DNA of 64,000 bases from Macrostomum lignano (Eukaryota): NCBI GenBank assembly GCA_002269645.1, contig NIVC01000738.1, forward strand, positions 310,001 through 374,000, given 5' to 3'. Made by a program: the position numbers and the translations under genes. Position 1 is the stretch's first letter. Each line of letters opens with the position of its first letter. The notes beneath the pieces are model-generated. The model was not told the DNA's origin. It worked only from the letters and a program-made list of their open reading frames with translations, and made no database searches. This document shows positions 9,576-27,041 of the stretch, piece by piece.

Positions 9576-11743
9576 TTATTCGCTGCCACCCGCCATGGCC
9601 AGCAGCGAAGGCAGAGTGTCGGGATCCAGGTTGCCTCCGGTGAGGACAACTCCAATGTGGCGCAGATGATCGGGCAGGCAGTCCGCTGCGGCGAACACTG
9701 CGGCGTGCAGAGCCGCGGCGCTGGCTGGCTCGATGACCTGACGGCACGGAGCGTTTGGGGCGACAGTCAGGGAGATTTTTTAGCCTTTCTTCATCCCCTC
9801 TCCTACAGGTGACTTGCGCTGCCCTTCTGTCCTGCTCTACCTTAAACAGACTCCTGACGCACCTGCTTCAGGTAGCGGAAGGCCAGGCGACAGCCCAGCG
9901 CCATTTCGGCGTCCGAGACAGACAGCACGTCGGGCTGGACGAGGTCGCAAAGCACCGGGAAGGTGAGCTCCCCCGCCGACTGCAGCCGCAGGCCATCTGC
10001 GATGGTCGTCAAGAAGGCGTCGGGGTTTGGCCATAGAGGTTGGCGGGCCGCCAGGCATTTGGCGAGGCCTTTACCGGCTGGCTCCACGCAGTGAACGCGG
10101 AGCTCCGGCTTCAGGTGGCGGCAGGCCACCGCGATGCCGCTGCTGAGGCCGCCGCCGCTGATGGGCACCTGCAGGTCAGGAAGGTCGGTGGCGGTATGTA
10201 GCCATTAGGCGCACTCAAAATATTTTGTTTATGGTTTACATCCTCTGAGAATGTTCCGGTCCGATAATTTGGCCTTGGACACTTTGTTCTGTTTCGGTTT
10301 CATGCTCAAAATCTGAAGTTTCCAACGTTTCCTGCGAGCTAGACATTGAATTTCGACGATAATAGTAGAAAAACAAAAAACATGCTTGTGTGCACCGATG
10401 GTTGTACATGCGGTAGCTATTAAACGTTTAAAGAAAATTTATGTAACTTTATGAGAATTGTATGTAAATTTTTGAGTCGCATATGCTGCGTATGTAAGTT
10501 GTACTCGTATGATATCTTAAATTCGTACGAATTGTTTCATTTCTCCAGAACAGTTCCCAGTTAAGATGAAACTACAATACACGAGTTCGTTACACGTAGG
10601 TACACGAAAATACGCCACAAAACTTGACTCATGCTAGGCATCTTGCTAGACTTTCGGTTGTACGAGTAGCATGAGGGCTTGGAGACAAAGTGATTCGGGT
10701 TGCTTGCACAAACGCGAAACTTCACACCCGCTAAATGTAACTTTAGTTGGTGATTTAGCTATTACGAAGTTTCGCTGTTGCAAAAGTAGATAACATTTAG
10801 AGGTTATGAAATTTCGCGTTTATGAAATCCCCCGCGGATGAGAGGGGAAGTATCTGGCCAGTTTGATGTGGCCACGAACACGGATTGCAACCCGGGCTAT
10901 CATGGAGCAAGAGTCAGAAGCGTCAATTGCTGAGCTGCGCTGGCTCGAGCACGAGAATTCGCCTGGCAACTCTCGCCTGAAAACCATGAGAAAATCGGGG
11001 CCGCCGTTGCTTTGATTTGTGGGAGTGCCTGAAGCCCCACTGCAGGTACAAGCTAACAAACAGAGCACCAGGGTCTTACCAAGACAGCGTCCAGCTCGGG
11101 CACCTGCTCCAGCAGCTCCAGGGCCACGGTGCCCTGCCCAGCCATCACGCGGTAGTCGTCAAACGGCGGCACCACAACAAGGCCGCGCTCCTCGGCCAGC
11201 CGAGCGCAAGCCTGGCGCCGGGCGCGCATATTCGGCTCGCAGAGGACCATCTCTGCTCCGTAGGCTCGGATGGCTGCCGTCTTGGCTGGCGAGGTGCCCT
11301 CGGGCACCACCACGCAGCAGGTGAGGCCGCATTCTCGGGCTGCCCAGGCCAGGGCTTAGTTAGGGATAAAGTTGAAATTTGTACGAGGAAAAACTTCCGC
11401 TTTGTAAAAGCCATTGGCAAATGAGCCGCACCTGCCCGTGGTTGCCGCTGCTGTGCGTCGCCACTCCAGCAGGCGTGGCGCGGCCGTTCTCCCGCGCCTC
11501 TTCCAGCAGGCACAGGACGGCGTTCAGCGCTCCGCGCGCCTTGAAGCTGCCAGTCCGCTGCAGGTGTTCGCACTTGAAATACAGCTGGCGCGATGACATG
11601 GCGTCCAGAATTCTGCTGGTCATCACCGGCGTGCGGTGCAGCCGGTCGCGCAGACGCTGCGCTGCAGAGGCGATTTTATCGAATGATATTTGCTTAGAAT
11701 GGTGGGGCGCTGCGGCCGCGGCTGTTGGAGTCGAGACCGACAT
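9576..11743 (-). CDS. SRR: Serine racemase / serine-threonine dehydratase (PLP fold II), 4 exons
   Basis: Exons 11743-11432, 11354-11080, 10168-9863 and 9737-9576. Motifs: FKCEHLQRTGSFKARGA (PLP lysine), HSSGNHGQ, PFDD..VMAGQGT, VPISGGGL, IADGL, GVVLTGGNLD. The exon 1/2 junction is one nt short as assembled. AATAAA overlaps the TAA stop. Confidence 0.9.
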
Positions 11744-12282
11744 CTTTGCATTGGTTTTATTGAATTCAGTTATTCAATCAATCCTGAGGTTCGTGAAAAC
11801 TGCTAAAAATTGGCTTTCGAAATCTCGTATGCTTTGTTGTGGCCCTCGCCATGCAGTATTCAACCCTAATCTCTCCCTTGCGAATGCTTATCTGACATTT
11901 TAGCAAGACACAGATGAACAGTTCCAAGCATTTACTTAGCGAATAGTCGAAGTGTACATATACAATCGTGCAGTCTATGCATGCACTGTACATGTGCATG
12001 CAATACCAGTGCACACTCCCTCTAACGAATAGGTTAAATACATGTCAGACAAGCTGTACGCTGTTTCCTCTGGCTACGTGACTGGCGCTTTTTTCTCTCA
12101 TTCTATTGTTCGGAAGACGATATTTTGACAGCTGTGACCTTTCACCCTTATAAGTATATTCGTTTTAATCCTAGTCACCTCATAGATAATCCCATCTCAC
12201 TCTCCTCTTCATCAAAAATCTAATGTACGAGTATATTTTCAGGTTAATTTTGAACCTGGCATCGCTGAAACTCATAAATCAT

Positions 12283-12800
12283 AGTAGTAGGAAAGTGGTA
12301 CCCTCTACCGCCATCGCACCGGATTGGCCGGGGCACCCGGCCAATGAGGGGAGAGGGCGCCCCGAAGACGCCCACCCCGACGCCAAACCCACCCCGACCC
12401 CCAAACCCACCCCGACCCCAAACCCACCACCGCCACGCACCCAATCCCGACCCCAAACCCACGCACCCACCCCCGACCCCAAACCAGGCCCCCTCCTGTC
12501 CTACACCCCTCCTGTCCTGCACCCCGTGCATCCCATACCAAGACCCCCTCCTGTCCTGCACCCCGTGCATCCCATACCAAGACCCCCTCCTGTCCTGCAC
12601 CCCGTGCATCCCATACCAAGACCCCCTCCTGTCCTGCACCCCGTGCATCCCATACCAAGACCCCCTCCTGTCCTGCACCCCATGCATCCCATACCAAGAC
12701 CCCCTCCTGTCCTACACCCCTCCTGTCCTGCACCCCGTGCATCCCATACCAAGACCCCCTCCTGTCCTGCACCCCATGCATCCCATACCAAGGCCCCCTC
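12283..12800 (+). repeat. Left terminal inverted repeat, including an expanded 39-bp tandem array at ~12490-12790
   Basis: agtagtaggaaagtggtaccctctaccgccatcgcaccggattggcc... matches the reverse complement of the region ending at 23319. The 39-bp unit is ccccctcctgtcctgcaccccgtgcatcccataccaaga. Confidence 0.92.
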
Positions 12801-13362
12801 CTATCCTACGCCTTGCCCCATCCCATGTAGCAAGGTCCTTCTATCCTGTACCCTAACCAAAACCAATTCCCCCCTCCTAATTCCTAAACCCAAGTCTTAT
12901 TACCTGTCTCACTTACCGCCTTTAAAGCTAGCCAAGGCAAAACCCTCATTCCATGCTTTGGTTGTACTGTATCTTGCTGTGGCGGGTACAGCGTGAGGTC
13001 GTTAGACCTAGAACGCTACTTCTTGGCGGCCAGAGGGCCGCAAGAAGGTCCCGCCACCTCCTGTTACGTTGATGGCTGAGACTTTGTTAAGGCCCGAGTT
13101 CCTGCGAAAGGGCTGCTGTGTGGGGGTTGGATTTGGGGTTCGGATTAGTTATTGCTATGGAACAGGAGCTGGTTTCTAAATGGCTGAGTGGTCCCCGGAA
13201 GGGCTCCTGATTTGCCGAGAGTTCCTGCGAGAGGGCTGTTGTGTGGGGTTGGATTCGGGGTTCGGATTGGTTATTGCTATGGAGCGGGAGCTGGTGTTAC
13301 TTACCAACTCTCGTCGTATATAATCTCGCACACAGCCGGAAGGAAAGCTCACAGTGAACAAA

Positions 13363-13800
13363 ATGAACTTCAAGACATTATCGAACAGATTTCGAATCGG
13401 CGTCAGGTCGCACTCGAAGTGCATCAGCATCAGAAAGTGGTACAAATTTGATGAAGAGTATCGACCAGGTCTGCCTGGCATGGAGCTCACCGTCCACCAG
13501 TTTTGCCACTTGGGCAGCCTGAAGGAACGACTGGAAGAGTTTGCAAGAAAGTGTATCGATGCGCAATGCCTTCTGGGTGGCAACAGGCAAGTGGTTGTGC
13601 AAAATGGCGTAATCACACTCTGGCGCCTTCCAACTGTACTCGGACCGCCGGTGCACCTAAGGCACGCCTTACCGCTTCCTACTACACTTTGGCGCGAAGT
13701 CTGGGCTCAAAAGCAATGGGTCCTAGACAAAATGACAAGCGAGAGCCTCCGGTCGAGCCACCGATCGGCGATCCATGGGATACCACCCTACGGAATCTGA
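13363..13800 (+). CDS. PC4/Sub1-like ssDNA-binding / coactivator-domain protein (Polinton-encoded)
   Basis: RIGVRSHSKCISIRKWYKFDEEYRPGLPGMELTVHQFCHL matches the PC4 pattern (V.V..F.G...IDIR.YY....PG.KGISL..EQW..L). A second, weaker repeat begins LGGNRQVVV. TATATAA lies at 13317-13323. Confidence 0.7.
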   Translation: MNFKTLSNRFRIGVRSHSKCISIRKWYKFDEEYRPGLPGMELTVHQFCHLGSLKERLEEFARKCIDAQCLLGGNRQVVVQNGVITLWRLPTVLGPPVHLRHALPLPTTLWREVWAQKQWVLDKMTSESLRSSHRSAIHGIPPYGI

Positions 13801-14048
13801 AGTGTTCAGCATGGGCAGCAAGGCTTACGCTCGACCAACTGATGCAAGTACCTGACAGGCAGTCGGCAGATTGGGACGACCACTGGGGGGCCTTCCAAGC
13901 AGTTCAGGCTGAATTTAGAAAGAGATTTACATTCGAAACTCTGGAAGAGCCACCAACAGCTGAGAAGAACCAACAGCCTTCATTCCACCAGCCACCAATG
14001 AAGCGACGCGCAATGCATGAAGCGACAACTGGTCATTTCGTCAATTAA
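13716..14048 (+). CDS. Hypothetical ~110-aa Polinton protein
   Basis: ATG-initiated ORF (MGPRQNDK...) overlapping the PC4-like ORF, with an AATAAA near 14212. No recognisable motif. Confidence 0.4.
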   Translation: MGPRQNDKREPPVEPPIGDPWDTTLRNLKCSAWAARLTLDQLMQVPDRQSADWDDHWGAFQAVQAEFRKRFTFETLEEPPTAEKNQQPSFHQPPMKRRAMHEATTGHFVN

Positions 14049-14483
14049 CTTTTTTTTAATATAGTTTTGAACCATAGTACTGATCATGCACTGTTGTATA
14101 TATTGCTTTGTCAATACTGGCCATAATATTGCCCCATCATGCTTTGATTCCGGGCGATAATACTGTTTTGTAAATACAGGCGACGGGCCTTAATACTGCC
14201 CTTCCATTCTTAATAAACTTTTTTGTGCTAATACGAGCTTTTAACATGTAATTTTATGCTTTGCAATCCATGGACCTGCCAATAAAATAAACAAAAAAAA
14301 CATTTCATTTTCGTAAGCATTGTTGTACAAACACTATTGTCGCATTCGCGTTTATTTTTTCTTATCTTTTGTACACAAAAAAAATACAGAAGTAAAGTTA
14401 CAGCAAAAATATTATTATTATTATTATTATTATTACTCGGTGCATAGGCAGATCTCACTACTACTGTTATGCCGTAGAGGAGC

Positions 14484-15083
14484 TCAGTCAGAGTCCAGCA
14501 AAGTAGGTTCGGATGCTTGATCTGGTAGCAAAATGCGGGAGAGGGCATCAGCTGCAGTCTGAGCCTCAACCACGCTGCGAGCACCAGCTATTATACAACG
14601 ATACGAATGAAACAAAATCAACTTTACAGAGGCAGTAAACTCGAGCACAAGTCCGTTAAACATTTCCGGCTCATAGGTGGCCCGATGCGGCCATTTAGAC
14701 TTGACTTCCCCCAACCGGAGTGGATGCCGACCCGCGGGAAAGGCCGTCACAGAGGTAATAGTCTTGATGCGAATCTGGGGCAGACTGGTCAATCGCAAGA
14801 AGTCCGCACACAGCTTCACAATCTTCTCCGTCTCTGCGAGAGCTTCCTCCATGCTTTTGGCTCCACAGACAGACACTTGTCCGGTCGGATACACCAGCGC
14901 GGTTACTCGATGCTGCCCGCTCTTCATCACCACTGCCAGTGTTCGAGGATGAACCAGGCGATGGCGGATTGTGTGATACTGAGGCAGATGAAGAGTCAGG
15001 AAATTCACTAGTTGAGGCAGACCCACCCGGGTCGCCAGGTCGGCTCCTGTCACGATGTTTGTCACGCGAATTGTTGCGACCAT
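14484..15083 (-). CDS. TATA-binding protein (TBP)-like protein, 199 aa, intact, inside the Polinton
   Basis: Two TBP repeats: RVTNIVTGADL...TALVYPTGQVSVCGAKSMEEA and IRIKTITS...ATYEPEMFNGLV...KLILFHSYRCIIAGARSVVEA. Compare canonical QNIV...TALIFASGKMVVTGAKS and YEPELFPGL...LIFVSGKIVLTGAK. Confidence 0.88.
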   Translation of the reverse strand: MVATIRVTNIVTGADLATRVGLPQLVNFLTLHLPQYHTIRHRLVHPRTLAVVMKSGQHRVTALVYPTGQVSVCGAKSMEEALAETEKIVKLCADFLRLTSLPQIRIKTITSVTAFPAGRHPLRLGEVKSKWPHRATYEPEMFNGLVLEFTASVKLILFHSYRCIIAGARSVVEAQTAADALSRILLPDQASEPTLLDSD

Positions 15084-15576
15084 CTTTAGACAATCGAGAG
15101 AAACGCCAGTGCCTGCTGCAGATCGCTACTTTTATAGACCCGTAGCCGCGAGGCCGCAGCCAATCAGCGTACAGCGCCACTTTGGCCAGGGCGCAGGGTA
15201 GCACGTACTTTGAGGCACTCGGAAAGGCTAGGTGTGCGAGGTCGTAGACAGGCTGCAGCAGCAGACGCGACAGGAACTGGCACTTGACATCCCCCTTGCT
15301 AAATATCGGGCCTTGCAAGTGAGAGATATCGCTCCAGAGACAAGAGTAGGGTCGGAACCCACTCCTGTCCCAGTCTAGACCGTGCCGCTTATTGGTGAGC
15401 CAGTAGCAGGTTCGTCGCTGTCCTCTATCAAAGAGCTCAAAGCTGTGCGGCGGCTGGTAGCAATAGTAATGAGCCGTCGTTTGACCGCATGCAAACTCAA
15501 CCCATGCAATTTCCTTAATCACAAAGTCCTCTGTTTTGTAGAGGTGCGGAAATCCTTCAAAATCAATGACAATCAT
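14695..15576 (-). CDS. DnaQ/DEDD-like nuclease-fold protein of Polintons; the real protein is probably the N-terminal ~140-150 aa
   Basis: MIVIDFEGF...FVIKEIA...H...PP...WLTNKRHGLDWD...FSKG..KC.FL. The C-terminal ~130 codons overlap the TBP-like gene out of frame and look like read-through. Confidence 0.6.
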   Translation of the reverse strand: MIVIDFEGFPHLYKTEDFVIKEIAWVEFACGQTTAHYYCYQPPHSFELFDRGQRRTCYWLTNKRHGLDWDRSGFRPYSCLWSDISHLQGPIFSKGDVKCQFLSRLLLQPVYDLAHLAFPSASKYVLPCALAKVALYADWLRPRGYGSIKVAICSRHWRFSRLSKDGRNNSRDKHRDRSRPGDPGGSASTSEFPDSSSASVSHNPPSPGSSSNTGSGDEERAASSNRAGVSDRTSVCLWSQKHGGSSRRDGEDCEAVCGLLAIDQSAPDSHQDYYLCDGLSRGSASTPVGGSQV

Positions 15577-16487
15577 CTTGGCCACTTGATCCACTTGCCG
15601 TATCCTTTCTGAGACTGAGTCTTCTTATAGCCTTGCAGTCGAGGTTTTTTAGGACTGGACTTTTCTTCCCGAGGCTTTTCCAGCAATTTTGTAGTGTTCA
15701 GACCAACTGCAGACAGAGGCACGTGGTTTTCTTGAAGACACGTAACAAACTCATTAATCCCATTCGGTGGCTGAAGGTACTTAGAGTACGTATCTTTAAC
15801 TATGAAATGCAGCAGGTCCACGATATTTGAGTTGTACAACGGTTTACCATTGACAGAAACTTCATACGTATCATCTATGCTAATCGACTTGCACTTTACG
15901 GTTATGAAGCTAATCAATGCCTGCAGACGATGATGCCATTTCTGATTCACCGTCAGATATAAAACCTCCTTCCACTGCGGTTCTTTGTGAATTACTGGAG
16001 GCTGTTCTTGGGTCGCACTTGCCTGCAGCTGCTGCACGCAACGCTCGTCCCTAATCTTGCGCAACTGTTTTTCCGCCTCTAGCTCGGGTTCACAGACTGT
16101 CTCCATGCCCCTCTGATTCACAAGTGCCTCATACTGCAACCGGGTACCAGTATCATTTCCTTGTACATGTCTTTTTATACAGGTGAGAATCAGAGGAAGA
16201 CAACGAAGGATATGCGGGTGTGAGAGATTACGCCGAGCCTCTTTCACACTTTTGCTTTGTGCAACAAGCCGGAGAGTATTTCGATATCGCCTGAGTCTCC
16301 GCTTCAAGCTATCTTCACAGCCAACTTTTCCTGCTAGTAAGTTGATAATACACTCGACCAAAAAGCAAATGGTGCTTTTATTTGCATAGGTAAGTATGCA
16401 GCGACGCAAGGATATAGTGCCCTCACAAAAGACAGTTATTAGTGCAATGTGTTTATCATGTTTAACTCAGTGCAGAGACTGAGCCAT
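15573..16487 (-). pseudogene. Two conserved Polinton ORFs, apparently fused by a 1-nt lesion, with an in-frame TGA
   Basis: ORF A reads MAQSLH*VKH...FLVECIINLLAGKVG...KRRLRRYRNTLRLVA, with TGA at 16469-16467. ORF B starts MYKEMILVP in another frame near 16150 and continues ...NGKPLYNSNIVDLLHF...PPNGINEFVTCLQENHVPLSAVG...KWIKW. Confidence 0.6.
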
Positions 16488-16489
16488 TC

Positions 16490-17147
16490 TTATAGATAAA
16501 CTCGCTGCGGGGCCTCATCGGGGAGAAAATTGGCTCTCAGGCGCAGTTCATGGCGTGAAGCGGGTGAAAATCAAGCAGCAGATAGCGCTGATCTCCATCT
16601 CGCACCAATCGATCCATCAGTTCTACTAGCAGAGTGCGCCGTTTGGGAAAGCATTGCTGACTTAAAGCTTGGACCGCAGAGGCGTCTCTGGGGTTGTTGA
16701 ACAACACCATGTAGGTGCAATTTATGCTAATTGTGCGCCACTCTCTGCCTTTGAAAAATAGATTTTGCGTGATGAGAATGACAAAGCAGGGCTTGTGGTG
16801 GGCCTCACGGGTGAACAGATGTCGTAGCTCTCGACTTGCAGCTGCTTCATCCAGTAAATCGTCAATCACAATCAGGTCATGGGGCTGCAGATCCAAATTC
16901 GATAATCCTTCACATACTTGCACTCCTAGCCGCCGCAGAGTCGCGTGGAGTTCCGGCTGCGGGCATCCGTGATACCAAATCATCCGCTTGGGAGGTTGGT
17001 CGAACAAAGCAGTCGTTGGGACAGCAACCGCAAACAGAATGTTGATTTTCCCGCTCGAGAAGGGCCCGAAACCATCATGCAGCCTCCCATCCGCAGTCTG
17101 GAATCAAACACCTTGCAACTGATTTTTGAGTCTGAGTATGATTGCAT
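16490..17147 (-). pseudogene. A32/FtsK-HerA-like DNA-packaging ATPase, frameshifted as assembled
   Basis: Walker A GPSRAGKST, then a frameshift near 17010, Walker B LIVIDDL, HH and TQN motifs and LFNNPRD. A second shift near 16550 precedes ELRLRANFLP. Confidence 0.9.
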
Positions 17148-17577
17148 CGTTTTGAGCCACAGCTGCCGGGTGCAAAACCTTGATGAACAAGGCATTATAT
17201 GACATTCTCTTATGCAGTCGATGGATCAAGTAAAAAATGCAATACCAGCCGCAAAGAGTTGACGAACTGGGCTGAACAGGGACCGTATTCCATTGTAGCA
17301 CCATCCGCGTCGGTTTAGTTTTCTTTAACCAGCTCTTCATATTTTTACTCAAGCCTCCCAAAGAGTTGAAAATTTCACAATGCACTTTACTGGTTACTAC
17401 TCCAGCAATCCAGTGACCGCACTCATCATTCCATGGCTCATACAAAATGAAGCAGCAGGGTCGGCAGGTTGAATCGAAAAATGGTGTCACTGTTCCAACT
17501 GTAAAATTTCCGCAATAGGCATCCCGCACAGATGTGGGGCAGCGAGAAATGAACGCTTCCAACTCTTCGGAATTCAT
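17104..17577 (-). CDS. Adenain-like (clan CE) cysteine protease, 157 aa
   Basis: GHW (His), FNSLG (normally FDSxG), VQ (oxyanion Gln) and CGWYC (Cys). Confidence 0.88.
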   Translation of the reverse strand: MNSEELEAFISRCPTSVRDAYCGNFTVGTVTPFFDSTCRPCCFILYEPWNDECGHWIAGVVTSKVHCEIFNSLGGLSKNMKSWLKKTKPTRMVLQWNTVPVQPSSSTLCGWYCIFYLIHRLHKRMSYNALFIKVLHPAAVAQNDAIILRLKNQLQGV

Positions 17578-18844
17578 GCTCTGCGATAATCCAGCAGCAC
17601 ATCCCTCTCTTTAGTGATTTCCATGCATGAATCATACACGCACAAGCAGATGAGTGTGACTGGCTGTGCGAGAGCGTTGGAAAAGCGAATATCCAGTCGT
17701 AGTTGACCCTGCCTATGACCAAACCAGCTGCCTACTTCATCGCCACTTGGACTAAGGTCAAACGCAAGCAGATAGGCACTATTTCGAAATTCATCAAAGC
17801 TTATGCAATATTTTCCACTGAGACTGCGGGCAAACTGCAAAAATTCGGATGAGGGCTGCTGCTGTGGTTCTATGGGCTGCCCAGTAATTGGCTCTCCATT
17901 GACAAACAGGCTTAAACTATTCAACCAAATGCTTGGAACCAAAACGGGTTGTGGTGCAGAGATCCATTGAAAGCAGTCTGGCTGACCATTCCAAGGAGCA
18001 CAAATTTTGGCAGCTGACCATGCGTGATTGAATCGAGACTCTTGTTTCTTGTCCCAACAGAAAATGTGAATGTCTGAAGCTCTCTTCTATCAAAGTGGTA
18101 GAGAGCATTACGCTGTGAGAGCCCCTGTTCATGTGCGAGAGCCACTGTTGGGTTTACTCGGAGACGCCTCAAAAGCAGAATAGCATTGTCGACTTCAACA
18201 CGGTATTGAACTCCATTATTGGGTACCATCAACGAAAAAGCGCTGCAGTGCCGGGTCAATTTGACCTGCAGGCTGATTTGGTTTAGCAGATACTGCCGGA
18301 TTGAGAAAATGTCTGAAAACAACGGGCCGGCATATTGCACAACAGCAGAAGCCTCATGCAATCTCGCACGATTTGTGAATCCATGATTTTGCTCCCCAAT
18401 GGTGTCACTCTCTCCAGCGGTGTCTGGATAATAACCTGCGGCCGCCAGTTCTTGAAGCTGGTTGGCATTGCTGCTGGTCAGCACTTGAAGCATTGCTCGA
18501 TATGGGTAGAGCTGGTCCCCACCACTCACAACCCGCTGGTTGAGTTTTACAGTGACATCACGAAACAGGCTGGCAAGCGGGAGATTCGATAGTCCGACAT
18601 GGGCATCATCTTCATTAGTCAGCTCTGCATTGTTTATCACACGAGTTATCCGGCAAGTGACTTGCAGCACTGTGGCGTGCAGATCGGTGTAGTCCTCAGA
18701 GGAGGCGTGGCAGTCGAATTCAATCGGTGCATCAGGAGTCGTGAGACTGCCGATGGGATGAAAGTCCGTGAAGTGAGACCTATCCACTCCAATTTCATGC
18801 GTCATTGGCTCAAACAGATTGAGCCGTGGATTTGTCCGATACAT
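17574..18844 (-). CDS. Polinton major capsid protein (double jelly-roll, PY/hexon-like), one frameshift near 17925
   Basis: LNLF...PIEF....DYTDLHATVLQV...SLFRDVTVKLN...YPYRAML...NPFWFQAFG, then in the adjacent frame LNSLSLFVNG...AFDLSP...G.LRLDIRFSNAL...VTLI....YDS.MEITKERDVLLDY. Confidence 0.88.
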
Positions 18845-19107
18845 TATGAGAGTGAATCGAGCACTCGGTTGACTGTTTTTAACGGTATCTTGCGCTTTTT
18901 TGTGGGCACTGGCTTGCTCTTCTTTGGTTTGATTTTTGGCGTTTTCTTATGTTTTTTCTGCGATGGAGGTGGTATGCGGGAAAGGAGAACTGCATTTTCA
19001 TGAGTCTCAGGGGGCAGTCGAGATAGCAGCGATGTGGGATATCCGTGCCCATGAGGAAGTTTGAAGCAACTGCCTCGATAAAACTCGGTCACTTGTCGAA
19101 TGTCCAT
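18844..19107 (-). CDS. Small basic virion-core-like protein, 87 aa
   Basis: FYRG...HGHG N-terminus and a Lys/Pro-rich tail. It lies between the minor and major capsid genes, and its stop overlaps the MCP ATG (TAATG). Confidence 0.6.
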   Translation of the reverse strand: MDIRQVTEFYRGSCFKLPHGHGYPTSLLSRLPPETHENAVLLSRIPPPSQKKHKKTPKIKPKKSKPVPTKKRKIPLKTVNRVLDSLS

Positions 19108-19871
19108 GACTCACGCAGCTCAAAAGTCAAGACTGTGGGTCCAAAGAGTAATCGGATAGATTCGATACAGTTGATCGGTCGTAGCCGTATTTGCATGTGT
19201 GTTAAGCGGTGGTTTGCTGCTATTGGGAAGAATAGCTTATTCTTATAGATGAGTTCCGACCGGTGATCCTGCAAAAGACCACCAATATTCAAAGTCTGCA
19301 GTGCTGGAGTAAACTGATTTCCAATACAGCGCGGGCTAATCTGATCGCACTCAACAAGCAGCAAATCCGTATTCCAGGCCGGGTTCATGCCAGGTCGTTC
19401 AAAGCATCCTGCCTGCTCGCTATAGGTTGTCTGCGCAGCACCAAAGATTTTCCCCATCTGGCTGTTTTCTGGAAACATAAATCTCTCACAGATCCCAGCC
19501 ATTTGATAGTATACATAATGGCTAACTGAATCAAGGGTAAATTTAATTAGATGCACATTTATAGGTGTTTCGCCAATTCCAGACTCATCAAAATCTTTTA
19601 CAATCAGTAAAGCATTTACTGCATCAATCAGCTCATTCAAGTCATTGTAGCGCCCAGCTGGAATTTCAGCACATTGCATTGAACCCTCAAGCTGATAATA
19701 TAGCGACAATGGATGAGGGATCGTGTAGATGCAGTTGATAAAACTGATTCCAAGCAGACCCAACTCATAGTCCAAAGCAGAATCCAGCAGCACAGGATGC
19801 AGCAGCTCAGCAGTAAAGTTGGCCGGGTCATCATCGGGGCCGGACATTACCTGAAATCTTTGCCTTTTCAT
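19089..19871 (-). CDS. Polinton minor capsid protein (penton/PX-like), 260 aa
   Basis: N-terminal ..NFTAEL..PVLLD...YELGL.GISF pattern and C-terminal FFPI...LTHMQIRL...T.LTFELR. Its position after the integrase fits this call. Confidence 0.75.
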   Translation of the reverse strand: MKRQRFQVMSGPDDDPANFTAELLHPVLLDSALDYELGLLGISFINCIYTIPHPLSLYYQLEGSMQCAEIPAGRYNDLNELIDAVNALLIVKDFDESGIGETPINVHLIKFTLDSVSHYVYYQMAGICERFMFPENSQMGKIFGAAQTTYSEQAGCFERPGMNPAWNTDLLLVECDQISPRCIGNQFTPALQTLNIGGLLQDHRSELIYKNKLFFPIAANHRLTHMQIRLRPINCIESIRLLFGPTVLTFELRESWTFDK

Positions 19872-21086
19872 ATTTTTCTTAAGTCTTTTTCGTCAATCCA
19901 ACTGGGTTTTTCTGAATCGCGCCACTGAACCAAATACCGAATCTTTCCACTCTTCAGCTTCTTAATGTTGAGAACCTTGTCGATGATCCACAGCTTCTTG
20001 TTTCCTGTCACTTGCTGCATTTCCGGCTCGTAAAACTTGCCTTCCAACTCTTCACCTCGGGCATCGATCAGAGTGTACATGTATGGATAATGCTTGGGGT
20101 GGAGGGACTTGACTTCAAATACTTCCTCACTCCATCCCCTTGTGTATCCCTTGGTGAATGGGTTGGCCAGATTGCGAAGAGAGATTCGCACCATCATTCC
20201 TGCCTTGAACTTTGGTCTGGAGACCTTTTCACGAGTCTCAGGAAGCTTCCCATCGTAAAGCCGGTGCCAAATTTCCATCTCGTTTGACTTGTCGACATCA
20301 ACTGGTCGGCTTTGAATACTCCGATGAATACTCTGGTTGTATGCCTTTGCTAAGGGTTGAAGCACATCGGTCCAGGTTAATGTTGACTTGTGACGGAAGT
20401 ACCGCCACATTCGGGATTTCAGTGTGCGGTTCCATCTCTCAATGACTGCGCATTTCTGGTCACTACTTGATGTGAATGCATGAATTTTGTGGTTTACGCA
20501 GAAGGCTCGGAACTGGGTGTTACAAAACTCTTTTCCACGGTCGGTCCGAACTGCTCGTGGGCATCGAGGGTGAGCTCGATTTAGGATCGCTTCGAATCCG
20601 GCTGCAACCTCCTCGGCTGTCTTGCGGCGCACCGGCTGAGCCCAGGCAAACTTGCTGAGCACATCAATGCAGCATAAAATATATCGTACGCCGCCATTGT
20701 ACTTGGCAAACGGTAGCATTTCAACCAGGTCCAGTTCCCACTGGTCATCCATGCCCCGCACCACAATCGGTGCTCGACGAAAGTTTTTGCGTTTATCTCT
20801 ATGCAGTGTGTAGACATCTTGGTCTTGGAGCCACGTTTTTACCTTTAATTGTAAAAACTGGAAATTGCTAGCTAGTGGATAAAACTAAAAACCTAAGCTG
20901 GAATTTTCTAAAAAATCATTGGTTTAGAAGTATATCGTATATACATACCTGCCCTACACTAAACTTGGGTCCGTGCTGTTTGTGCAACTCTCGTTTTAAT
21001 GCCTGATAGCCGCCATAGCTGCCCGGTCTACTGCAGTCAAAATAAATACCTGGCAGAAGGTTTGAAATTGCCTTTTTCTTTTTCAT
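19868..21086 (-). CDS. Retroviral-like (rve) DDE integrase with C-terminal chromodomain-like region, 2 exons, 370 aa
   Basis: Exon 1 is 21086-20949 (MKKKK...YFDCSRPGSYGG...Q), the intron is 20948-20843 (GTATGT...TTAAAG), and exon 2 is 20842-19868. Exon 2 motifs: VKTWLQDQDVYTLH, WELDLVEM, IDVLSKFAW, RTDRGKEF, IERWNRTLK, YNQSIHRSI, YLVQW. Confidence 0.93.
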
Positions 21087-21197
21087 TTTACCAAATTTCT
21101 AGTACCTATCATTTTCTTATGCCAAACACCTGCTTGAAAAAAAAAATAACTGCCCACCCCCACCAGTTTCTGCGGATTTAGCGTTTCTAGCCTCTGT

Positions 21198-21510
21198 TGT
21201 GCACGAAAAAGCATGCATGTTTGCACAAAATACATACATTTCAATGGGAATTTTTACCCGAATGTGTGCACAAAAAACCTCAACACTTTGCATACTTTTT
21301 AACACTGTGCACGAAAACTTGCATACTTGTGCACAAAATACATGTATTTCAATAGGGATTTGTACCCGAACCTGTGCATGAAAATTGACGCATTTTGTCG
21401 AAAAATTCACGCCGTATTGCATACTTTTAATCACTGGACGAAAACTTGCATACTTGTGGATAAAATACATACATTTCAATGGGGATTTTACCCCAGAGCT
21501 GTGCACAAAA
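21198..21510. repeat. Three degenerate ~108-129 bp direct repeats upstream of the integrase
   Basis: Copies start at 21198, 21306 and 21435 and share tg(t)gcacgaaaa...aaaatacat..atttcaat.gg.attt.tacc. Confidence 0.7.
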
Positions 21511-21702
21511 AATGACTAATTATAGCAAAAATATTTTTGTGAAAGAGCATTTTTCTCTATTTCTGCGTATTAAATATCATAGAGTAAAGCTTGTATTTAT
21601 TATTATTCAAAATATAGTATGTTCGTATTAAATTTACATGCATATAGTTGTTTTAAATCAGATATTTACAAAGAAAAAAAAATTTGTGGGAAAAAGAGCT
21701 TG

Positions 21703-22472
21703 CTAGTGTCCTGACAGATCGCACTGGCCGATATACACTAGCCTGTCGAGCACAACATTCGTCTTGAGAATGTGCACTAGAGCTAAATCCCCGTTGAAAA
21801 TCATCTGATCGCGGAACGTCGGCTTGGCCACAGGCTTCCCTGCTGAATAAACCAGCACGTAGTCCACTTGCTTGCGAACATACTCGATGGTCTACAGGGA
21901 GTTGTTTAGCAGCTTGTTGCAGTCTTTCTTGAACTCATTCTTGGCCTTTTGCACGACGCTCTATGCGGTAGATAATAACTTACGGTTGACACGTCAACAC
22001 ACCGAGTGGTCCTGATTACCCAGCCACTGCCATTGCGTAGTTACTTCTCTATCCGGTTGATGATAGTCTGCATGTCGTCAGAGAAGTAGTACTCCTCCTC
22101 ACTCTGGAGAAGAGAGTGGACCTTGGCAGCAAACCAGGCAGTGTTCTCGGCGGCGCAGCTACCATTAATGATGCGCTGCATCAGGACCCCGAGGCGCAGC
22201 TGAACTTTGATGGCGGTTCCTGGCTCACGTTGATGCTGGGTGATCAAGTCAATGAAAGCTTGACGAGTGTTTTCCAAAACATTCATCGGGTCGCCGCATG
22301 CACTGGCCCGGTAAAGTTGGGACCTGCCATTAAACGCCTCCTTGATCAGTTGAAAATGAATCGCTGGGGAGTCATCTGACTCAAACAGTGCTGGTATCGC
22401 AGGACATACCGCATAGTGCTCCTCAATGCCCCCGATTACTGATGACTCGCAAAAGTCGCAAGTTATTTGCAT
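21703..22472 (-). pseudogene. Protein-primed DNA polymerase B remnant (internally deleted, with nonsense codons)
   Basis: The N-terminal region (CDFC...H...C; KVQLRL...IEK*LRNGSGW) is joined within about 100 nt to motif B (KDCNKLLNNSL*TIEYVRKQVD...AKPTF...IF...KTNVVLDRLVYIGQCDLS). Exonuclease, motif A and motif C are absent. Confidence 0.85.
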
Positions 22473-22532
22473 TTTCGTTGTATTTTTAATTTAATCTAAA
22501 ATAAATAAAAAATCTATGGGGCCGAGGTGCTT

Positions 22533-22700
22533 TATTTATAAAGGGTACTGGAGCCCTTCTCCCGCAGGGTCCAAACCAAATCGTTCATCAGGGACCTCTC
22601 GACCAATAGAATCCATTCTCCACATTTTACTCGGAAATCACTTCAAATGCTTGCTCGACCAATAGAATCCCTTCCCCTCTCTACTCGGAAATTCCAAGCA
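22533..22700 (-). promoter_or_regulatory. Putative PolB promoter: TATAAATA plus duplicated CCAAT-containing 56-bp repeat
   Basis: TATAAATA lies at 22540-22533, about 60 nt before the ATG at 22472. ctcgaccaatagaatcc...tactcggaaat occurs at 22598 and 22654. Confidence 0.45.
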
Positions 22701-22953
22701 ATCAGACCCTCTACCCGTTAAGATCACATTGAAACTCTGTCTTGCGTATCACCACATGCGGTAGAGGATACTCAACTATGGACACTCATTCACATCTCAA
22801 AACTCACCCTTGAACACTCACTTAACTCACCCTTGGACACTCACCCAGACACTCAGCTGCCCAACCCCTCATCTGGCCTGCTCGACCGGCTTGCCCGACC
22901 GGCTTGCCCGACCCCAACCTGGGCTTGCCCGACCCCCTTCTCCGGCCTCCGGT

Positions 22954-23319
22954 ATGGGATGGTGTGCTGGACAGGAAGGGGCCTTGGTATGGGATGGGGT
23001 GCAGGACAGGAGGGGGCCCGGTTTGGGGTCGGAGGTAGGTGCGGCGGTGGTGGGTTTGGGGTCGGGTGGGCGTCTTTGGGGGCCCGGTTTGGGGTCGGGG
23101 TGGGTGCGTGGCGGTGGTGGGTTTGGCCGGGGTCGGGGTGGGTTTGGGGGTCGGGATTGGGTGCGTGGCGGTGGTGGGTTTGGGTCGGGGTGGGTTTGGG
23201 GGTCGGGGTGGGTTTGGCGTCGGGGTGGGCGTTTTTTGGGGGCGCCGTCTCTCCTCATTGGCCGGGTGCCCCGGCCAATCCGGTGCGATGGCGGTAGAGG
23301 GTACCACTTTCCTACTACT
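22954..23319 (-). repeat. Right terminal inverted repeat
   Basis: Reverse complement of the left end, differing in the copy number of internal subrepeats. Confidence 0.92.
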
Positions 23320-23906
23320 AATCATATTTTATCAAAATGGGATGATTTATGGCCACACCTGTCACTTTTCGAGGGTTCTCCGGGGCTTTCAGGTTCAGGT
23401 AGCATCAGTCGATCAGCGAATCAGAAAAATCAGTTGGTGTAATCAGAATTGAAGTATTTCAAAAATCGCCGGGCCAGTTGGTTCCCAATTTGGACCGCTG
23501 ATTTTTCCTGCCTGGAACCAAACCTTTCACTCCGTTCGGCGGGGATCTCTGCTTTCCCCGCGACGCATTTCAGTTCGTTGAGCAACCCTGAGGGACCGTC
23601 TGAGTGAACATCCTCTCCAACTGCCGACTTTCTTTCCCCCGGTTTCAGCGCCGCCCCTCATCGAGCGAAATCGAGTCAGAAGACGCCATCTTCGATGTCA
23701 ACTGCCACAGCTTCATCGAGAGTCGGCCGTCCCTGAGCTACGACTCGGGTGAGAGGCTAATTGAACCTGCTTGGTTGAGAGGACTGTTTATATCTGGCCC
23801 CGTTTCAATAGTTTGATTGGGTGTTGCACTTTACTTGTTTGCTTTTCACGTGCTGAACTTTTCGAGGCAGAAATCCAGCGTTAAATGCTAAGAGCCTAAT
23901 AAAGCA

Positions 23907-24062
23907 TTTTGCAGTCTAGTTTAAGTAAATAATTTTGCAGTCTAGTTTAAGTAAATAATTTTTCAGTCTAGTTTAAGTAAATAATTTTGCAATCTAGTTT
24001 AAGTAAATAATTTTGCAGTCTAGTTTAAGTAAATAATTTTGCAATCTAGTTTAAGTAAATAA
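23907..24062. repeat. 26-bp tandem repeat, 6 copies
   Basis: Unit ttttgcagtctagtttaagtaaataa. Confidence 0.9.
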
Positions 24063-24124
24063 TAAACGCCGTTTAATTCACATTCTAACCATAGACTATG
24101 ATGAATTAAACGGCGTTTATCATA

Positions 24125-24874
24125 TATAGTATTTTGCAGCCCATTTGGGCTTATGCGCATTTAATTTAATCCAAGATACGTTTGCCAATGTAACAGAGCT
24201 TTTGTCTATGGTAGCAAGGCTGGCGCAGCGGCATTTAATTTGGTCCAAAAAGCATCCATTTGGTCCAAACACTCGTGAGCCATTGGACAAACTCTTGCCT
24301 TCTCTCAACCGTCTGCAGGTTGTTGCGCACCGCTAGAATGTCAGCGTCTCTACCAGCAGTTTTCAGTTGCTTTTCCAGAGCTCTGCTGATAGTCGAAATC
24401 TGATAACCAACTGGAGCTGTTCCCTCAATTTCTGCTGCATTTCGGCAACGTCAACAAAGGGTTCGTCTCCACTGCATCGAGTAGCAGTTGGACCTGAGGC
24501 TCTCGAGCAACTTTCCTTGGCGATTGCCACCCTTTCGCACGCAATCTCTGCCGGCAGAGTTTCAACGCGCTGCTGGATGCTGTAAACCACCTTTTCTTTT
24601 ACATTCAGCAACCTTGCAATGTCCTTTGGGTGTTCACCTCCGTCGAGTGCTTCGATCACAAGCCAATGACATTCGTTCAATAGCCTAGCATATGGTCCAC
24701 AATTCTGGGACTGAGCTGCAAATGAACTAAATGGACCAAATTGATGCTTGTCGGACCAAATCAAATGCCGCTGCGCCAGCCTTGCTACCATAGACAAAAG
24801 CTCCGTTACTTTGACAAACAAATCTTGGATTAAATTCGATGTGCGTAAGCCCAAATGGGCTGAAAAAAGCTATA
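24125..24874 (-). mobile_element. Tc1/mariner-type deletion derivative with ~140-bp TIRs
   Basis: Inverted repeats at ~24125-24266 and ~24727-24874. The interior encodes an HTH-like transposase N-terminus (GEHPKDIARLLNVKEKVVYSIQQR...DEPF...EMQQKL). Confidence 0.7.
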
Positions 24875-27041
24875 CTAAATTCGATTGCTCCTGATTTCGA
24901 GGAGATTATATGATATAATATCCAAGGACAACTTGATAACTCATTAAGTTGTCCTTGATAATATCCTAGTTATTGTTAAAATTTACCACAGACAACACAT
25001 TCCCGACTCGGAATAGTAAAATTTTTAACGATTAAATAAACAATCGTATTTTATACAGCGGGCACTCTACTCGTATTTAGACGCTTATATGAAACTTCGT
25101 TAGAAATCAAAAGCAGGCTATGGCCATAGAAAAAATTATGAGTAACACTGATTAGAAATTTGGGGCAGCCGAATCGGACAACTCAATATTTAAATAATTT
25201 TGCAATATTTAGGAGTGTTGCGTCCTGATACAACGGCAACTTCTAGTGGTTCTTGATTTTACAATGGAATTTAGTGCATTCCCCCGATCCTAATCATCGC
25301 CTTGCGGCTTGAATTGACTGCTCTTGCAAGAACTCAAATTTATCTTGCAGCTGTCTTCTCTTCAGCTACAGCTGAAGTTAACATAGAACCTGGCCATACC
25401 TGGGGAGTGAAAATGTGACAGGATAGGAGGCCCTAGCATTTGGTGATTAATTTCTAATGTTCTAATACCCAAGCCTCCAATTAAGACCAGGGACAACTAA
25501 AACAACTCAGGAAGCGAAAAGAGCCAAATCATTGTGAAAAAAAGTTGGAGGCCTGGCCTTGTTTTAGTCTATGGGCACCCAGTTTTTCATGCATTAAATG
25601 CATTACGATCAGCTTAGCTGCTGAAAAGATTTGTCTCTTTTCGCGTCCCGAATGTTTTAGTTGTCCCTGATTAAGGCTTAAAAAGGCGGAACTCATCACT
25701 ATATGGCTAGTTCGTTAAGTCTGAACTTACACTATTTATTTTCAAATAAAAAGAAATTATAACAATTTTCGTATGATGTTACATTTCTATTTAGCTTTCT
25801 TGTTTTCTTTTTCCCCTTTCAACTACATACATGTACAAGATTCAAAAAGGGTCCTTTTTGTCTCCTGGTGAACTTCCTTTGTTAAAAGGTGTTATCTGTT
25901 ATCAACAAAAAATTAACTTTATGCGAACATTAACGGCACGCGCGAGTGCGCTATAAAAACCGCCGCCGCGTTAGAATAATCGGACATAGAGAGTGAGTAG
26001 ACTTCGGCTACAGGCAGGCATATAGTAATAAAAGGCATAGAGTAACAATAAAGATCAGAAAATTACTACTCCTAAGTAGATCTCTTTGCATTAAAAATGT
26101 TGAAGTAAAATTGTAAATGCCCTTATAGGCCTATTATATTATATATCTATTAATTTAGTTCACTACATTGATAGCACCTCGTCCTCGACTTCTCGATGAT
26201 ATGCTAAGATTCTGCTTTTTGCTAGTGTTGAAGCGATTGAACTTGACTTAGTTTTTTAGCCCGCTACATTGTACTTATCTAGATGTAGGGGCCTAGGCTA
26301 GGCCTACTATACAAAGAAATTGTTTCTTTTTGAGCCCAACCAGCAGTAACTTTCTAAGTGTGGGCCTTTCCTAGGACGTAGGTCTAGTTCTAAGTTCGCA
26401 AATGAGAAAAAACATCTGACACTGACAGAGTCATATTATAAAGCCAATGCAAAAGAAGACTGTTGGAGCTACAAGCCTTAGCCTAGCCTATTTGTAATAA
26501 TAATAACATTAACAACAATGGACTTAAATAAAAAATTGCTTGGTTATCAAATGCAATTATCAGATGGCTATCCTAAAAACAAAGATATTGATTCAAGTCA
26601 TGTTCAACAAACAACAATGACTCTACCTATAAAATTAACAAGTCAAAAATTGCCTTTCTCAACACAAAATACTTTTGTGGCAACTGCTACATTAAACCGC
26701 ATGAGACATATCTCAATATCAAAATGTGAAAACACCAATTGGTCACAAGCAGATTCAACTATATATGCAACACTTACAAGGGATTCAAAGAAAAAACTTT
26801 CACTTGGGAAATTAAGTAAGTATAAAAGCATTAATAATTTGACTTAATATAAAAATTTTTATTGATAGTGATTAGTGATAAGTTATGATTAATGCCTATT
26901 TTAATATTGCATATTCTGTATTCAAATACTTATAAATATTTATTTATTATAGGCCTATATAAAATTTTAATTTATATCATTAGTCCTATCTAGACTTAAA
27001 TATGTAGTATCCTAGCTTTAGAGGCATAGCCTAGTTAGAAA

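What the first reader, a model, noticed from the sequence alone, without database searches (positions are those of the whole stretch)
12277..23325. Fully bounded Polinton/adintovirus-like provirus with perfect TSD
Seen in sequence: AATCAT-AGTAGTAG...CTACTACT-AATCAT, 11,037 bp long. Gene order on the minus strand is PolB remnant, INT, mCP, small basic protein, MCP, PRO, ATPase, ORF A/B, DEDD-like, TBP-like; the plus-strand PC4 block lies at the left end. Established: 6-bp TSDs and AG(T)-repeat termini are Polinton hallmarks. It provides a complete reference for a possibly undescribed family, shorter than typical 15-20 kb elements.
Basis: partly seen in the sequence, partly recalled or inferred. 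Interest (0 to 1): 0.7.

Follow-up and report, generated by a model that had tools for sequence, protein, structure and literature searches.

The report
Decayed Polinton carrying a TBP-like gene
This is a real but broken copy of a known kind of virus-like jumping gene (a Polinton), and its one unusual feature is an intact gene for its own divergent TATA-binding protein, shared with distant relatives, which may help it switch on its genes using the host's machinery.

Summary
The boundaries are as reported: AATCAT target-site duplication, (AGT)2 ends, 11,037 bp, inverted repeats exact for 67 bp. The gene order is confirmed.

It is not a complete reference. The PolB locus is a 767-bp remnant with no room for a polymerase. 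MCP, ATPase and ORF A are broken, and probably ORF B. The short length reflects deletion.

The notable part is an intact 199-aa TBP-like gene (TBP fold, Z 18.9). It is about 23% identical to a canonical TBP and falls in a divergent seven-sequence clade. One distant member keeps the same overlap with the DEDD/MAEL-like gene in the same reading phase, so the gene is inherited cargo, not a one-off capture.

All seven keep both TFIIB-contacting glutamates, while several TATA-contact positions are changed. TATA boxes precede non-structural genes but not the capsid module. The most likely role (about 45%) is a viral promoter factor working with host TFIIB, as herpesviral TBP mimics work with host Pol II. 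A decoy role is the main rival.

The integrase has an apparent spliceosomal intron, unusual for Mavericks. TBP was noted before in non-animal MELD viruses, but I found no report for animal-type Polintons. Repbase and Dfam were not searchable.

The parts
12277..12282 (+). Left target-site duplication AATCAT
12283..12656 (+). Left terminal inverted repeat, (AGT)2 end; minisatellite arrays continue to about 12809
13096..13295 (+). Two direct repeats about 122 nt apart, upstream of the PC4-like gene (possible regulatory repeats; inferred)
13317..13323 (+). TATA-box match 46 nt upstream of the PC4-like ATG
13363..13800 (+). PC4/Sub1-like gene, 145 aa, open frame
   Evidence: Pfam PC4 E 3e-5; MoSub1 structure E 0.0085; the label MOSUB appears on published adintovirus maps
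13716..14048 (+). ORF of 110 aa, unknown, overlapping the PC4-like 3' end
   Evidence: no PHROG or NCBIfam hit
14049..14483 (.). AT-rich convergent terminator region with AATAAA on both strands (+14212, +14281, -14356)
14484..15083 (-). Intact, intronless TBP-like gene, 199 aa, two-lobed saddle
15130..15136 (-). TATAAAA box 53 nt upstream of the TBP-like ATG, inside the DEDD-like ORF
14695..15576 (-). DEDD/MAEL-like ORF, 293 aa. The folded domain is about 15100-15576; the tail overlaps the TBP-like gene in another frame
   Evidence: 30% identity to P0044 N-terminus, E 4e-24; no library hit; nuclease-family label recalled; MAEL label on published maps
15573..16168 (-). ORF B (conserved Polinton ORF, recalled); probable frameshift near 16130-16140
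   Evidence: residues identical in P0014
16168..16487 (-). ORF A (PW-like, recalled); in-frame stop at 16467-16469
16500..17090 (-). FtsK/A32-type packaging ATPase pseudogene. Walker A and Walker B lie in different frames; breaks near 17000-17030 and probably near 16540
17104..17577 (-). Adenain-like cysteine protease, 157 aa, open frame. His and Cys align with adenain; Asn stands at the acidic triad position
   Evidence: E 0.16, weak
17574..18844 (-). Double jelly-roll major capsid protein gene, frameshifted near 17925
18844..19107 (-). Small basic protein, 87 aa (cupiennin/core-protein position; label recalled)
   Evidence: no library hit
19089..19871 (-). Putative minor capsid protein (penton), 260 aa, open frame; identity from position and recalled motif
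   Evidence: no library hit
19868..21086 (-). rve integrase with chromodomain, DDE motifs present. Exon 1 is 21086-20949 (46 aa); exon 2 is 20842-19868
20843..20948 (-). Apparent 106-nt phase-0 GT-AG spliceosomal intron in INT (GTATGT donor, pyrimidine tract, stops in all three frames, AG|GT at both junctions)
   Evidence: splicing inferred, no RNA data
21200..21531 (.). Three direct repeats of about 100 nt between the PolB remnant and INT
21706..22472 (-). PolB remnant: 143-aa N-terminal piece, stop at 22041-22043, then a short piece resembling motif B with a stop at 21892-21894; most of the polymerase is absent
   Evidence: identity from recalled motifs only, all searches empty
22534..22540 (-). 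TATA-box match 68 nt upstream of the PolB-remnant ATG
22951..23319 (-). Right terminal inverted repeat, (ACT)2 end
23320..23325 (+). Right target-site duplication AATCAT

Best explanation
An integrated Polinton/Maverick (polintovirus) with a Beta-adintovirus-like virion module. Its rve integrase inserted it with a 6-bp staggered cut (duplication shown; enzymology from established knowledge). This copy is non-autonomous and decaying: most of PolB is gone and MCP, ATPase, ORF A and probably ORF B are broken (shown). It could only have been copied by a polymerase supplied in trans, or it lost PolB after insertion (inferred; about 50:50). The lineage carries a conserved accessory cassette of a DEDD/MAEL-like gene overlapping a TBP-like gene (shown for two distant elements). 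Most likely role of the TBP-like protein (inferred, about 45%): host TBP transcribes the TATA-containing early genes (PolB, PC4-like, DEDD-like, TBP-like), and the viral TBP-like protein then binds a non-canonical promoter sequence and recruits host TFIIB and Pol II through its two conserved glutamates to express the TATA-less integrase/capsid module. The confidence below is for the identity and state of the element and for the TBP-like gene being inherited cargo, not for that last step.
For: TSD, TIR and end motifs match the Maverick definition. rve INT. The ten best of 48,161 chains for the MCP-fragment model are all double jelly-roll capsid or scaffold proteins, Z 7.2-9.9, rmsd 3.7-4.9. 11 MCP homologs, 5 of them full-length at 41-82% identity. 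No room for PolB. TBP model pLDDT 86, Z 18.9, rmsd 2.7 over 174 residues to TBP. Seven-sequence clade: FastTree 0.98 among 150 sequences; SH-aLRT/UFBoot 86.8/98 among 50. P0044 carries the DEDD-like domain (E 4e-24); its linker fits the TBP-like 5' end read in the same overlap phase as in the window (score 24; maximum 9 in 300 shuffles; other phase 4). Glu138 and Glu140 in 7 of 7. N-lobe L5.1 position is Tyr in 6 of 6 (Phe in 118 of 143 others). C-lobe Asn is Thr in 7 of 7 (Thr in 3 of 143 others). PMC7221094 ties these glutamates to TFIIB binding and reports about 40% conservation in viral TBPs, which have their own TFIIB. 3 of 7 TATAWAW sites lie 46-68 nt upstream of PolB, TBP-like and PC4-like ATGs, and none upstream of INT, mCP, small basic, MCP, PRO or ATPase (post hoc p 0.0003).
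Against: PolB identity was not confirmed by any of six searches. The MCP model is of low confidence (mean pLDDT 51). Genomic context is known for only one other clade member (P0044, indirectly); the other five have none, and long-branch attraction may inflate the seven-sequence clade. The two glutamates are also the common state in ordinary TBPs (124 and 134 of 143), so their presence shows retention, not novelty. No shared 6-mer occurs upstream of more than 3 of 7 structural genes, so no late-promoter motif was found. Those genes are tightly coupled and could be read from one spliced transcript. ORF A and ORF B have TATA-like sequences only 7-11 nt before their ATG, which the model does not explain. 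The TATA window was chosen after seeing the data. There is no expression or binding data.
Confidence: 0.8

Rival explanations
1. The TBP-like protein is a decoy or antagonist, not a promoter factor. With a degraded DNA-binding face and an intact TFIIB surface, it sequesters host TFIIB or competes with host TBP and so damps host transcription or silencing, possibly together with the MAEL-like neighbour.
For: Several DNA-contact positions are changed: first N-lobe Phe absent in 6 of 6, both Thr positions changed, C-lobe Asn changed, and the otherwise invariant C-lobe Gly (143 of 143) replaced by an aromatic residue in the window's 4-member subclade. The TFIIB glutamates are kept. No late motif was found.
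Against: Both C-lobe Phe are invariant (7 of 7), the N-lobe L5.1 position stays aromatic, and the first Asn is kept in 5 of 6. The whole saddle is retained. TBPL1 also changes N.L5.1 and is proposed to recognise other DNA motifs.
Confidence: 0.3
2. The element is a recently active, naturally compact helper-dependent family, and the frameshifts are long-read assembly errors.
For: The outer 67 bp of the TIRs and the TSD are perfect. 8 of 13 frames are open. A gene model 99-100% identical to the left half, joined to ABC-transporter exons absent from this window, suggests a second near-identical copy (P0014).
Against: Three in-frame stops (two in PolB, one in ORF A) are not indel errors. The neighbouring PALP-enzyme exons and a 470-aa RT ORF show no frameshift (a small, partly selected control). 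The TIRs already differ at 4 of about 170 positions.
Confidence: 0.15
3. The TBP-like gene is a recent, functionless capture of a host TBP or TRF2 paralogue by this one copy.
For: Its origin is unresolved: deep nodes have weak support, and no named TBPL1/TRF2 sequences could be identified among the hits. Polintons are known to pick up host cargo.
Against: About 23% identity to a canonical TBP. Intact relatives at 60-62%. The same overlap with the DEDD-like gene in a relative at about 30% identity. Its own TATA box and an open frame in a copy where core genes have decayed.
Confidence: 0.05

Closest known systems
Polintons/Mavericks of animals (PMC8097293; PMC10748475)
   Same: 6-bp TSD, (AGT)2//(ACT)2 ends, TIRs of about 370 bp, rve integrase, double jelly-roll MCP, protease, ATPase, two convergent gene blocks, degraded state.
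   Different: 11.0 kb against 12.7-24.6 kb for intact vertebrate elements, because PolB is mostly deleted. Apparent intron in INT, where intact vertebrate elements are intronless. TBP-like gene not mentioned in the passages searched.
Beta adintoviruses (PMC8502044)
   Same: Order integrase - penton - small protein - hexon - adenain resembles the Beta map labels. MAEL and MOSUB (PC4) accessory genes occur on adintovirus maps.
   Different: PolB class cannot be tested. No GasderminX recognised. No TBP label in the animal maps of Suppl. Fig. S2; TBP appears only in the legend for MELD viruses from non-animal datasets (figure not seen).
Beta/gamma-herpesvirus TBP mimics (KSHV ORF24, EBV BcRF1; PMC7498053)
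   Same: Working analogy: a nuclear dsDNA virus without its own RNA polymerase uses a TBP mimic for late genes.
   Different: This protein is a bare 199-aa saddle with no Pol II CTD-binding N-terminal domain, and no five-protein partner complex is evident. It keeps the TFIIB glutamates.
TBP-like proteins of Nucleocytoviricota and mirusviruses (PMC7221094)
   Same: Virus-encoded two-lobed TBP fold. BFVD matches to giant-virus TBPs at 10-18% identity.
   Different: Those usually pair with a virus-encoded TFIIB and conserve the first glutamate in only about 40%. No TFIIB-like ORF was detected here, and the model is closer to cellular TBP structures.
Cellular TBP and TBPL1/TRF2
   Same: Fold (Z 18.9), TFIIB glutamates, C-lobe Phe pair. 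A non-Phe aromatic at N.L5.1, as in TBPL1 (Trp there).
   Different: About 23% identity, changed DNA-contact residues, partly neutralised N-lobe basic patch in the window's subclade, intronless, carried on a mobile element.

Membership tests
Polinton/Maverick lineage (degraded copies included) | 6-bp target-site duplication | tested here: met
   definition
Polinton/Maverick lineage (degraded copies included) | TIRs with (AG)3 or (AGT)2 end motifs | tested here: met
   definition
Polinton/Maverick lineage (degraded copies included) | Retroviral-type rve integrase | tested here: met
   Pfam rve E 7.5e-14; DDE motifs
Polinton/Maverick lineage (degraded copies included) | Double jelly-roll major capsid protein | tested here: met
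   Top 10 rows all DJR capsid/scaffold proteins, Z 7.2-9.9; the model is low-confidence and covers the N-terminal part only
Polinton/Maverick lineage (degraded copies included) | Packaging ATPase, cysteine protease and minor capsid protein | tested here: inconclusive
   Weak hits for ATPase and protease; none for mCP; motifs and position fit (recalled)
Polinton/Maverick lineage (degraded copies included) | Protein-primed PolB gene or its remnant | tested here: inconclusive
   Remnant recognised by recalled motifs; searches empty
Intact autonomous Polinton ('complete reference') | Full-length pPolB with exonuclease and polymerase motifs | tested here: not met
   767-bp locus; largest internal gap 619 bp
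Intact autonomous Polinton ('complete reference') | Uninterrupted core ORFs | tested here: not met
   MCP, ATPase and ORF A broken, ORF B probably
Beta adintovirus | OTU-bearing Beta-class PolB | not testable with these tools
   Gene mostly deleted; no reference sequences in session
Beta adintovirus | Hexon and penton cluster with Terrapene cognates | not testable with these tools
   MCP homologs are unnamed; reference set not available
Beta adintovirus | Cupiennin and GasderminX accessory genes | tested here: inconclusive
   A small basic ORF occupies the cupiennin position; no profile hit; GasderminX not recognised
TBP fold family (PF00352) | Two-lobed pseudo-symmetric saddle | tested here: met
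Canonical TATA-binding TBP | Phe at L5.1 in both lobes and the other conserved DNA-contact residues | tested here: not met
   N-lobe Tyr65, first N-lobe Phe absent, C-lobe Asn is Thr108; mapping of L5.1 to the alignment column is my inference
Canonical TATA-binding TBP | C-lobe glutamates C.L3.2 and C.L3.4 that contact TFIIB | tested here: met
   Glu138 and Glu140, 7 of 7 in the clade; role
Herpesviral TBP mimics (ORF24/BcRF1/UL87) | N-terminal Pol II CTD-binding domain | tested here: not met
   The TBP fold spans residues 1-187 of 199; feature
NCLDV-type viral TBP systems | Cognate virus-encoded TFIIB | tested here: inconclusive
   No TFIIB Pfam hit in 18 ORF segments; several ORFs are unannotated and the copy has deletions

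The most novel reading that the evidence does not exclude
A lineage of animal-type polintoviruses encodes its own TBP paralogue. It has reprogrammed DNA specificity but uses host TFIIB, forming a minimal one-protein late-transcription switch, distinct from the herpesvirus (Pol II CTD-binding) and giant-virus (own TFIIB) solutions. That would give Polintons an early/late programme, direct evidence of a viral cycle, and a handle to test it.
Probability: 0.3. Interest if true: 0.75.

Novelty: new variant of a known kind. Interest (0 to 1): 0.5.

Why it matters
The insertion itself is ordinary: degraded Polintons are common. The conserved TBP-like cassette bears on an open question, how Polintons control their genes and whether they run a true viral programme. 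A 199-aa protein with a predicted TFIIB surface and an altered DNA-binding face can be tested on its own. It would also add a class of TBP variants missing from the survey passages read (no mention of Polintons or transposons in PMC7221094). The apparent INT intron departs from the reported rule that intact Mavericks are intronless.

Tried and rejected
PolB confirmation. Pfam, PHROGs (only an unknown family at E 0.017), phage tblastn, PDB, the Atlas (best score 0.82, a lead at most) and a search for longer homologs (74 candidates, none at E <= 0.01, weak evidence) all gave nothing.

Genomic context from prokaryotic genomes. One candidate locus, L001, matched only 21 residues of the MCP and showed no other element gene; rejected as chance.

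P0044 as a natural DEDD-TBP fusion. Rejected: it lacks the TBP N-terminus in frame, and its linker matches the overlapping frame.

Complex of the TBP-like and DEDD-like proteins. No verdict (score 0.31, mark 0.34, alignments not used). It is not used as evidence either way.

Late-promoter motif. None found.

Other checks. Rfam found no family in 12000-24000. An in-window empty site or second copy was not found. Source names and accessions of the homologs could not be obtained, so their hosts are unknown.

Host genus. A recalled guess (a free-living flatworm) was used as a search term; nothing confirmed it, and the host remains undetermined.

Rows left out of the trees: P0021 (spurious Ig-repeat hit) and P0014 (chimeric, near-identical to the query). 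Only the best 150 of 454 hits were returned, so further clade members may be unseen.

Not checked: Repbase, Dfam, eukaryotic genome assemblies, viral and metagenome contig collections, and the sequence file in the adintovirus paper's supplement (the text searched was cut at 4.0 million characters, mostly a network file). The supplements of PMC7221094 listing viral TBPs were not read.

Full report
1. Observation. Two random 6-mers of this window match with probability 3.9e-4, and the flanks are not complementary. The TIRs are exact for 67 bp, have 165 identities, 4 mismatches and 3 gap columns over the first 170 bp, and are 79.7% identical over 385 columns where minisatellites differ. No other copy lies in the window. 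PMC8097293 (passages) gives 6-bp TSDs and (AGT)2//(ACT)2 as Maverick hallmarks, intact sizes of 12.7-24.6 kb, no introns in intact elements, and 96% of loci degraded. PMC10748475 (passages) gives 13-25 kb and used 900 aa as its minimum pPolB length.

2. Anatomy. On the minus strand, from right to left: PolB remnant, INT, mCP, small basic protein, MCP, protease, ATPase, ORF A, ORF B, DEDD-like, TBP-like. On the plus strand: a PC4-like gene and a 110-aa ORF. The two blocks converge on an AT-rich region with AATAAA on both strands. Pfam supports INT, TBP and PC4, and weakly the protease and the P-loop, among 18 segments scanned. The MCP has 11 homologs, five full-length at 41-82% identity. A low-confidence model of its first 306 residues (pLDDT 51) has double jelly-roll capsid or scaffold proteins as its ten best matches among 48,161 chains (Z 7.2-9.9); the viral library is likewise dominated by capsid proteins. 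The protease aligns its His and Cys with adenain, weakly (E 0.16). The PC4-like protein matches MoSub1. The text layer of Suppl. Fig. S2 of PMC8502044 shows MAEL and MOSUB as known adintovirus accessory genes and a Beta-type order of integrase, penton, cupiennin, hexon, adenain (order read from page layout). The mCP, small basic, ORF A/B, DEDD-like and PolB labels rest on position and recalled motifs; no library confirmed them.

3. The copy is broken. The PolB locus is 767 bp: a 143-aa N-terminal piece, a stop, a frame change, and a short piece resembling motif B with another stop. The largest unassigned internal gap is 619 bp. At least about 1.9 kb of polymerase is therefore missing, which accounts for the short length. 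MCP changes frame near 17925 relative to intact relatives. The ATPase Walker A and B motifs lie in different frames, ORF A has an in-frame stop, and ORF B probably has a frameshift (these inferred without homologs). Eight of 13 frames are open. Assembly error cannot be excluded for the frameshifts but does not explain three stops or the deletion; nearby host exons look clean. P0014 is an automatic gene model identical to the left half at all but one internal residue of about 300 aligned, joined to ABC-transporter exons with no hit in this window. It suggests a second, very similar copy, though it could be this locus in another assembly with a long false intron.

4. INT intron. A 46-codon first exon starting at 21086 is separated from the rve ORF by 106 nt with GTATGT at the donor, a pyrimidine tract and AG at the acceptor, in phase 0, with stops in all three frames and AG|GT at both junctions. 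Splicing is inferred. PMC11957031 (passages) reports introner-bearing Polinton-like proviruses in dinoflagellates, so introns in such elements have a precedent outside animals.

5. The TBP-like gene. It is intact and intronless, 199 aa. The model has pLDDT 86 and matches TBP at Z 18.9, rmsd 2.7 over 174 residues; identity to a canonical TBP is about 23%. Two intact relatives are 60-62% identical. The exhaustive search gave 454 hits, of which the best 150 were listed. After dropping P0021 and P0014 and adding P0002 and the query, a 150-sequence tree puts the window protein with P0001, P0002, P0015, P0016, P0044 and P0123 (0.98). A 50-sequence IQ-TREE run (the 7, 19 divergent neighbours and 24 random others) gives 99.5/100 for the inner four and 86.8/98 for the seven; deeper nodes are weak, so the donor is unknown. 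P0044 begins with a homolog of the window's DEDD-like ORF (30%, E 4e-24). Its linker is compatible with the 5' end of a P0016-like TBP read one base out of phase (score 24, maximum 9 in 300 shuffles; the other phase scores 4), the same phase as the overlap in the window. The two-gene cassette is thus conserved across about 30% protein identity. The other five members have no known context.

6. Residues. Against 143 other TBPs in the alignment: Glu138 and Glu140 in 7 of 7 (124 and 134 of 143); both C-lobe Phe in 7 of 7; N-lobe L5.1 Tyr in 6 of 6 (Phe in 118); first N-lobe Phe absent in 6 of 6 (Phe in 113); C-lobe Asn is Thr in 7 of 7 (Asn in 127); both Thr positions changed; the C-lobe Gly (143 of 143) is aromatic in the inner four. 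PMC7221094 (passages and part 2 of its main section) states that these glutamates contact TFIIB, that L5.1 Phe is key to TATA binding and is Trp in TBPL1, and that viral TBPs conserve the first glutamate in about 40% and mostly come with a viral TFIIB. Mapping L5.1 to my alignment column is my inference.

7. Promoters. Of 7 TATAWAW sites in the element, 3 lie 46-68 nt upstream of the PC4-like, TBP-like and PolB ATGs (post hoc p 0.0003), and a TATAAG lies 53 nt upstream of the DEDD-like ATG. INT, mCP, small basic, MCP, protease and ATPase have none within 130 nt. ORF A and ORF B have TATA-like sequences 7-11 nt from the ATG. No common motif was found for the structural genes.

8. Mechanism. Shown: the insertion hallmarks, the loss of autonomy, and a conserved TBP-like cassette with an intact fold, retained TFIIB residues and altered DNA-contact residues. 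Inferred: early genes are read by host TBP; the viral TBP-like protein recognises a non-TATA sequence and brings host TFIIB and Pol II to the capsid module (about 45%). This works like the herpesviral TBP mimics (PMC7498053, abstract), but it is not a member of that family because it lacks their N-terminal domain. Rivals: a decoy of host TFIIB (about 30%), a functionless passenger (about 5%), other roles the remainder.

9. Novelty. Searches for Polinton with TATA-binding protein (5 papers), Polinton with TBP (8 papers, 7 listed), Maverick with TATA box binding (0) and polintovirus/adintovirus with TATA, PC4 or Maelstrom (1) found no report of TBP in animal Polintons. In-text searches were empty or irrelevant for PMC10748475, PMC11161782, PMC11131425, 10.64898/2026.10.13.758929, PMC12220804 and PMC7221094. 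Against novelty: PMC8502044 (parts 1-3 of 6 read) and its preprint 10.1101/697771 (passages) list TBP in the legends for MELD viruses from non-animal datasets; I could not see the figures. PMC10675990 (passages) notes TBP in putative mirusvirus elements. PMC11131425 (section 8) notes VLTF3 in coral polintoviruses, so transcription-factor cargo is known. Repbase, Dfam, subscription papers and the adintovirus sequence supplement were not checked. The host was not determined.

10. Verdict. A real, fully bounded but non-autonomous and decaying Polinton; not a complete reference. Its value lies in the conserved TBP-like cassette: a new variant of a known kind, interest 0.5.

Noticed in passing
window 20843-20948 (-): Apparent spliceosomal intron in the integrase gene, with AG|GT at both junctions as in proto-splice-site or introner-type gain; intact vertebrate Mavericks are reported intronless.
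   Followed up: partly
P0014 (matches window 16133-15951, 15300-15139, 15074-14625, 13538-13377): Chimeric public gene model joining near-identical element sequence to ABC-transporter exons; probable second copy and a likely annotation artefact.
   Followed up: partly
window 14695-15083 (-): The DEDD-like ORF has no stop before the TBP-like start and overlaps it by about 390 nt; the same phase is seen in P0044. The TBP-like TATA box lies inside DEDD-like coding sequence.
   Followed up: partly
window 9700-11773 (-): Host PALP-family gene (serine racemase/threonine dehydratase-like; subfamily recalled) starting about 540 bp from the element's left end, so the insertion sits in its upstream region.
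   Followed up: no
window 54518-55747: Non-coding element of about 1.2 kb with arms of at least 328 nt, 99% complementary, and further inverted sequence inside; MITE- or foldback-like.
   Followed up: partly
window 49909-51318 (+): Open 470-aa reverse transcriptase ORF (RVT_1, E 2.2e-29), non-LTR-like.
   Followed up: no
window 53166-53777 (-): GIY-YIG fragment, possibly from a Penelope-like element (recalled).
   Followed up: no
window 24056-24964: Inverted-duplicated fragment (143 nt at 89%) with a weak HTH_29 hit, probably a transposase relic, next to a 26-nt tandem array from 23906.
   Followed up: no
window 21200-21531 and 13096-13295: Three repeats of about 100 nt upstream of INT and two repeats about 122 nt apart upstream of the PC4-like gene; possible regulatory sites and candidate targets for the TBP-like protein.
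   Followed up: no
window 17104-17577 (-): The protease has Asn where adenain has an acidic triad residue; it is unknown whether this is decay or a family trait.
   Followed up: no
BFVD entry R9XLG5: The best structural match of the MCP fragment is an 'uncharacterized' Cotesia sesamiae bracovirus protein at 26% identity, probably a Polinton capsid gene in a bracovirus segment.
   Followed up: no
window 32500-35400 and 46700-48300: Long, homogeneous minisatellite arrays with units of 21, 22 and 15 nt.
   Followed up: no
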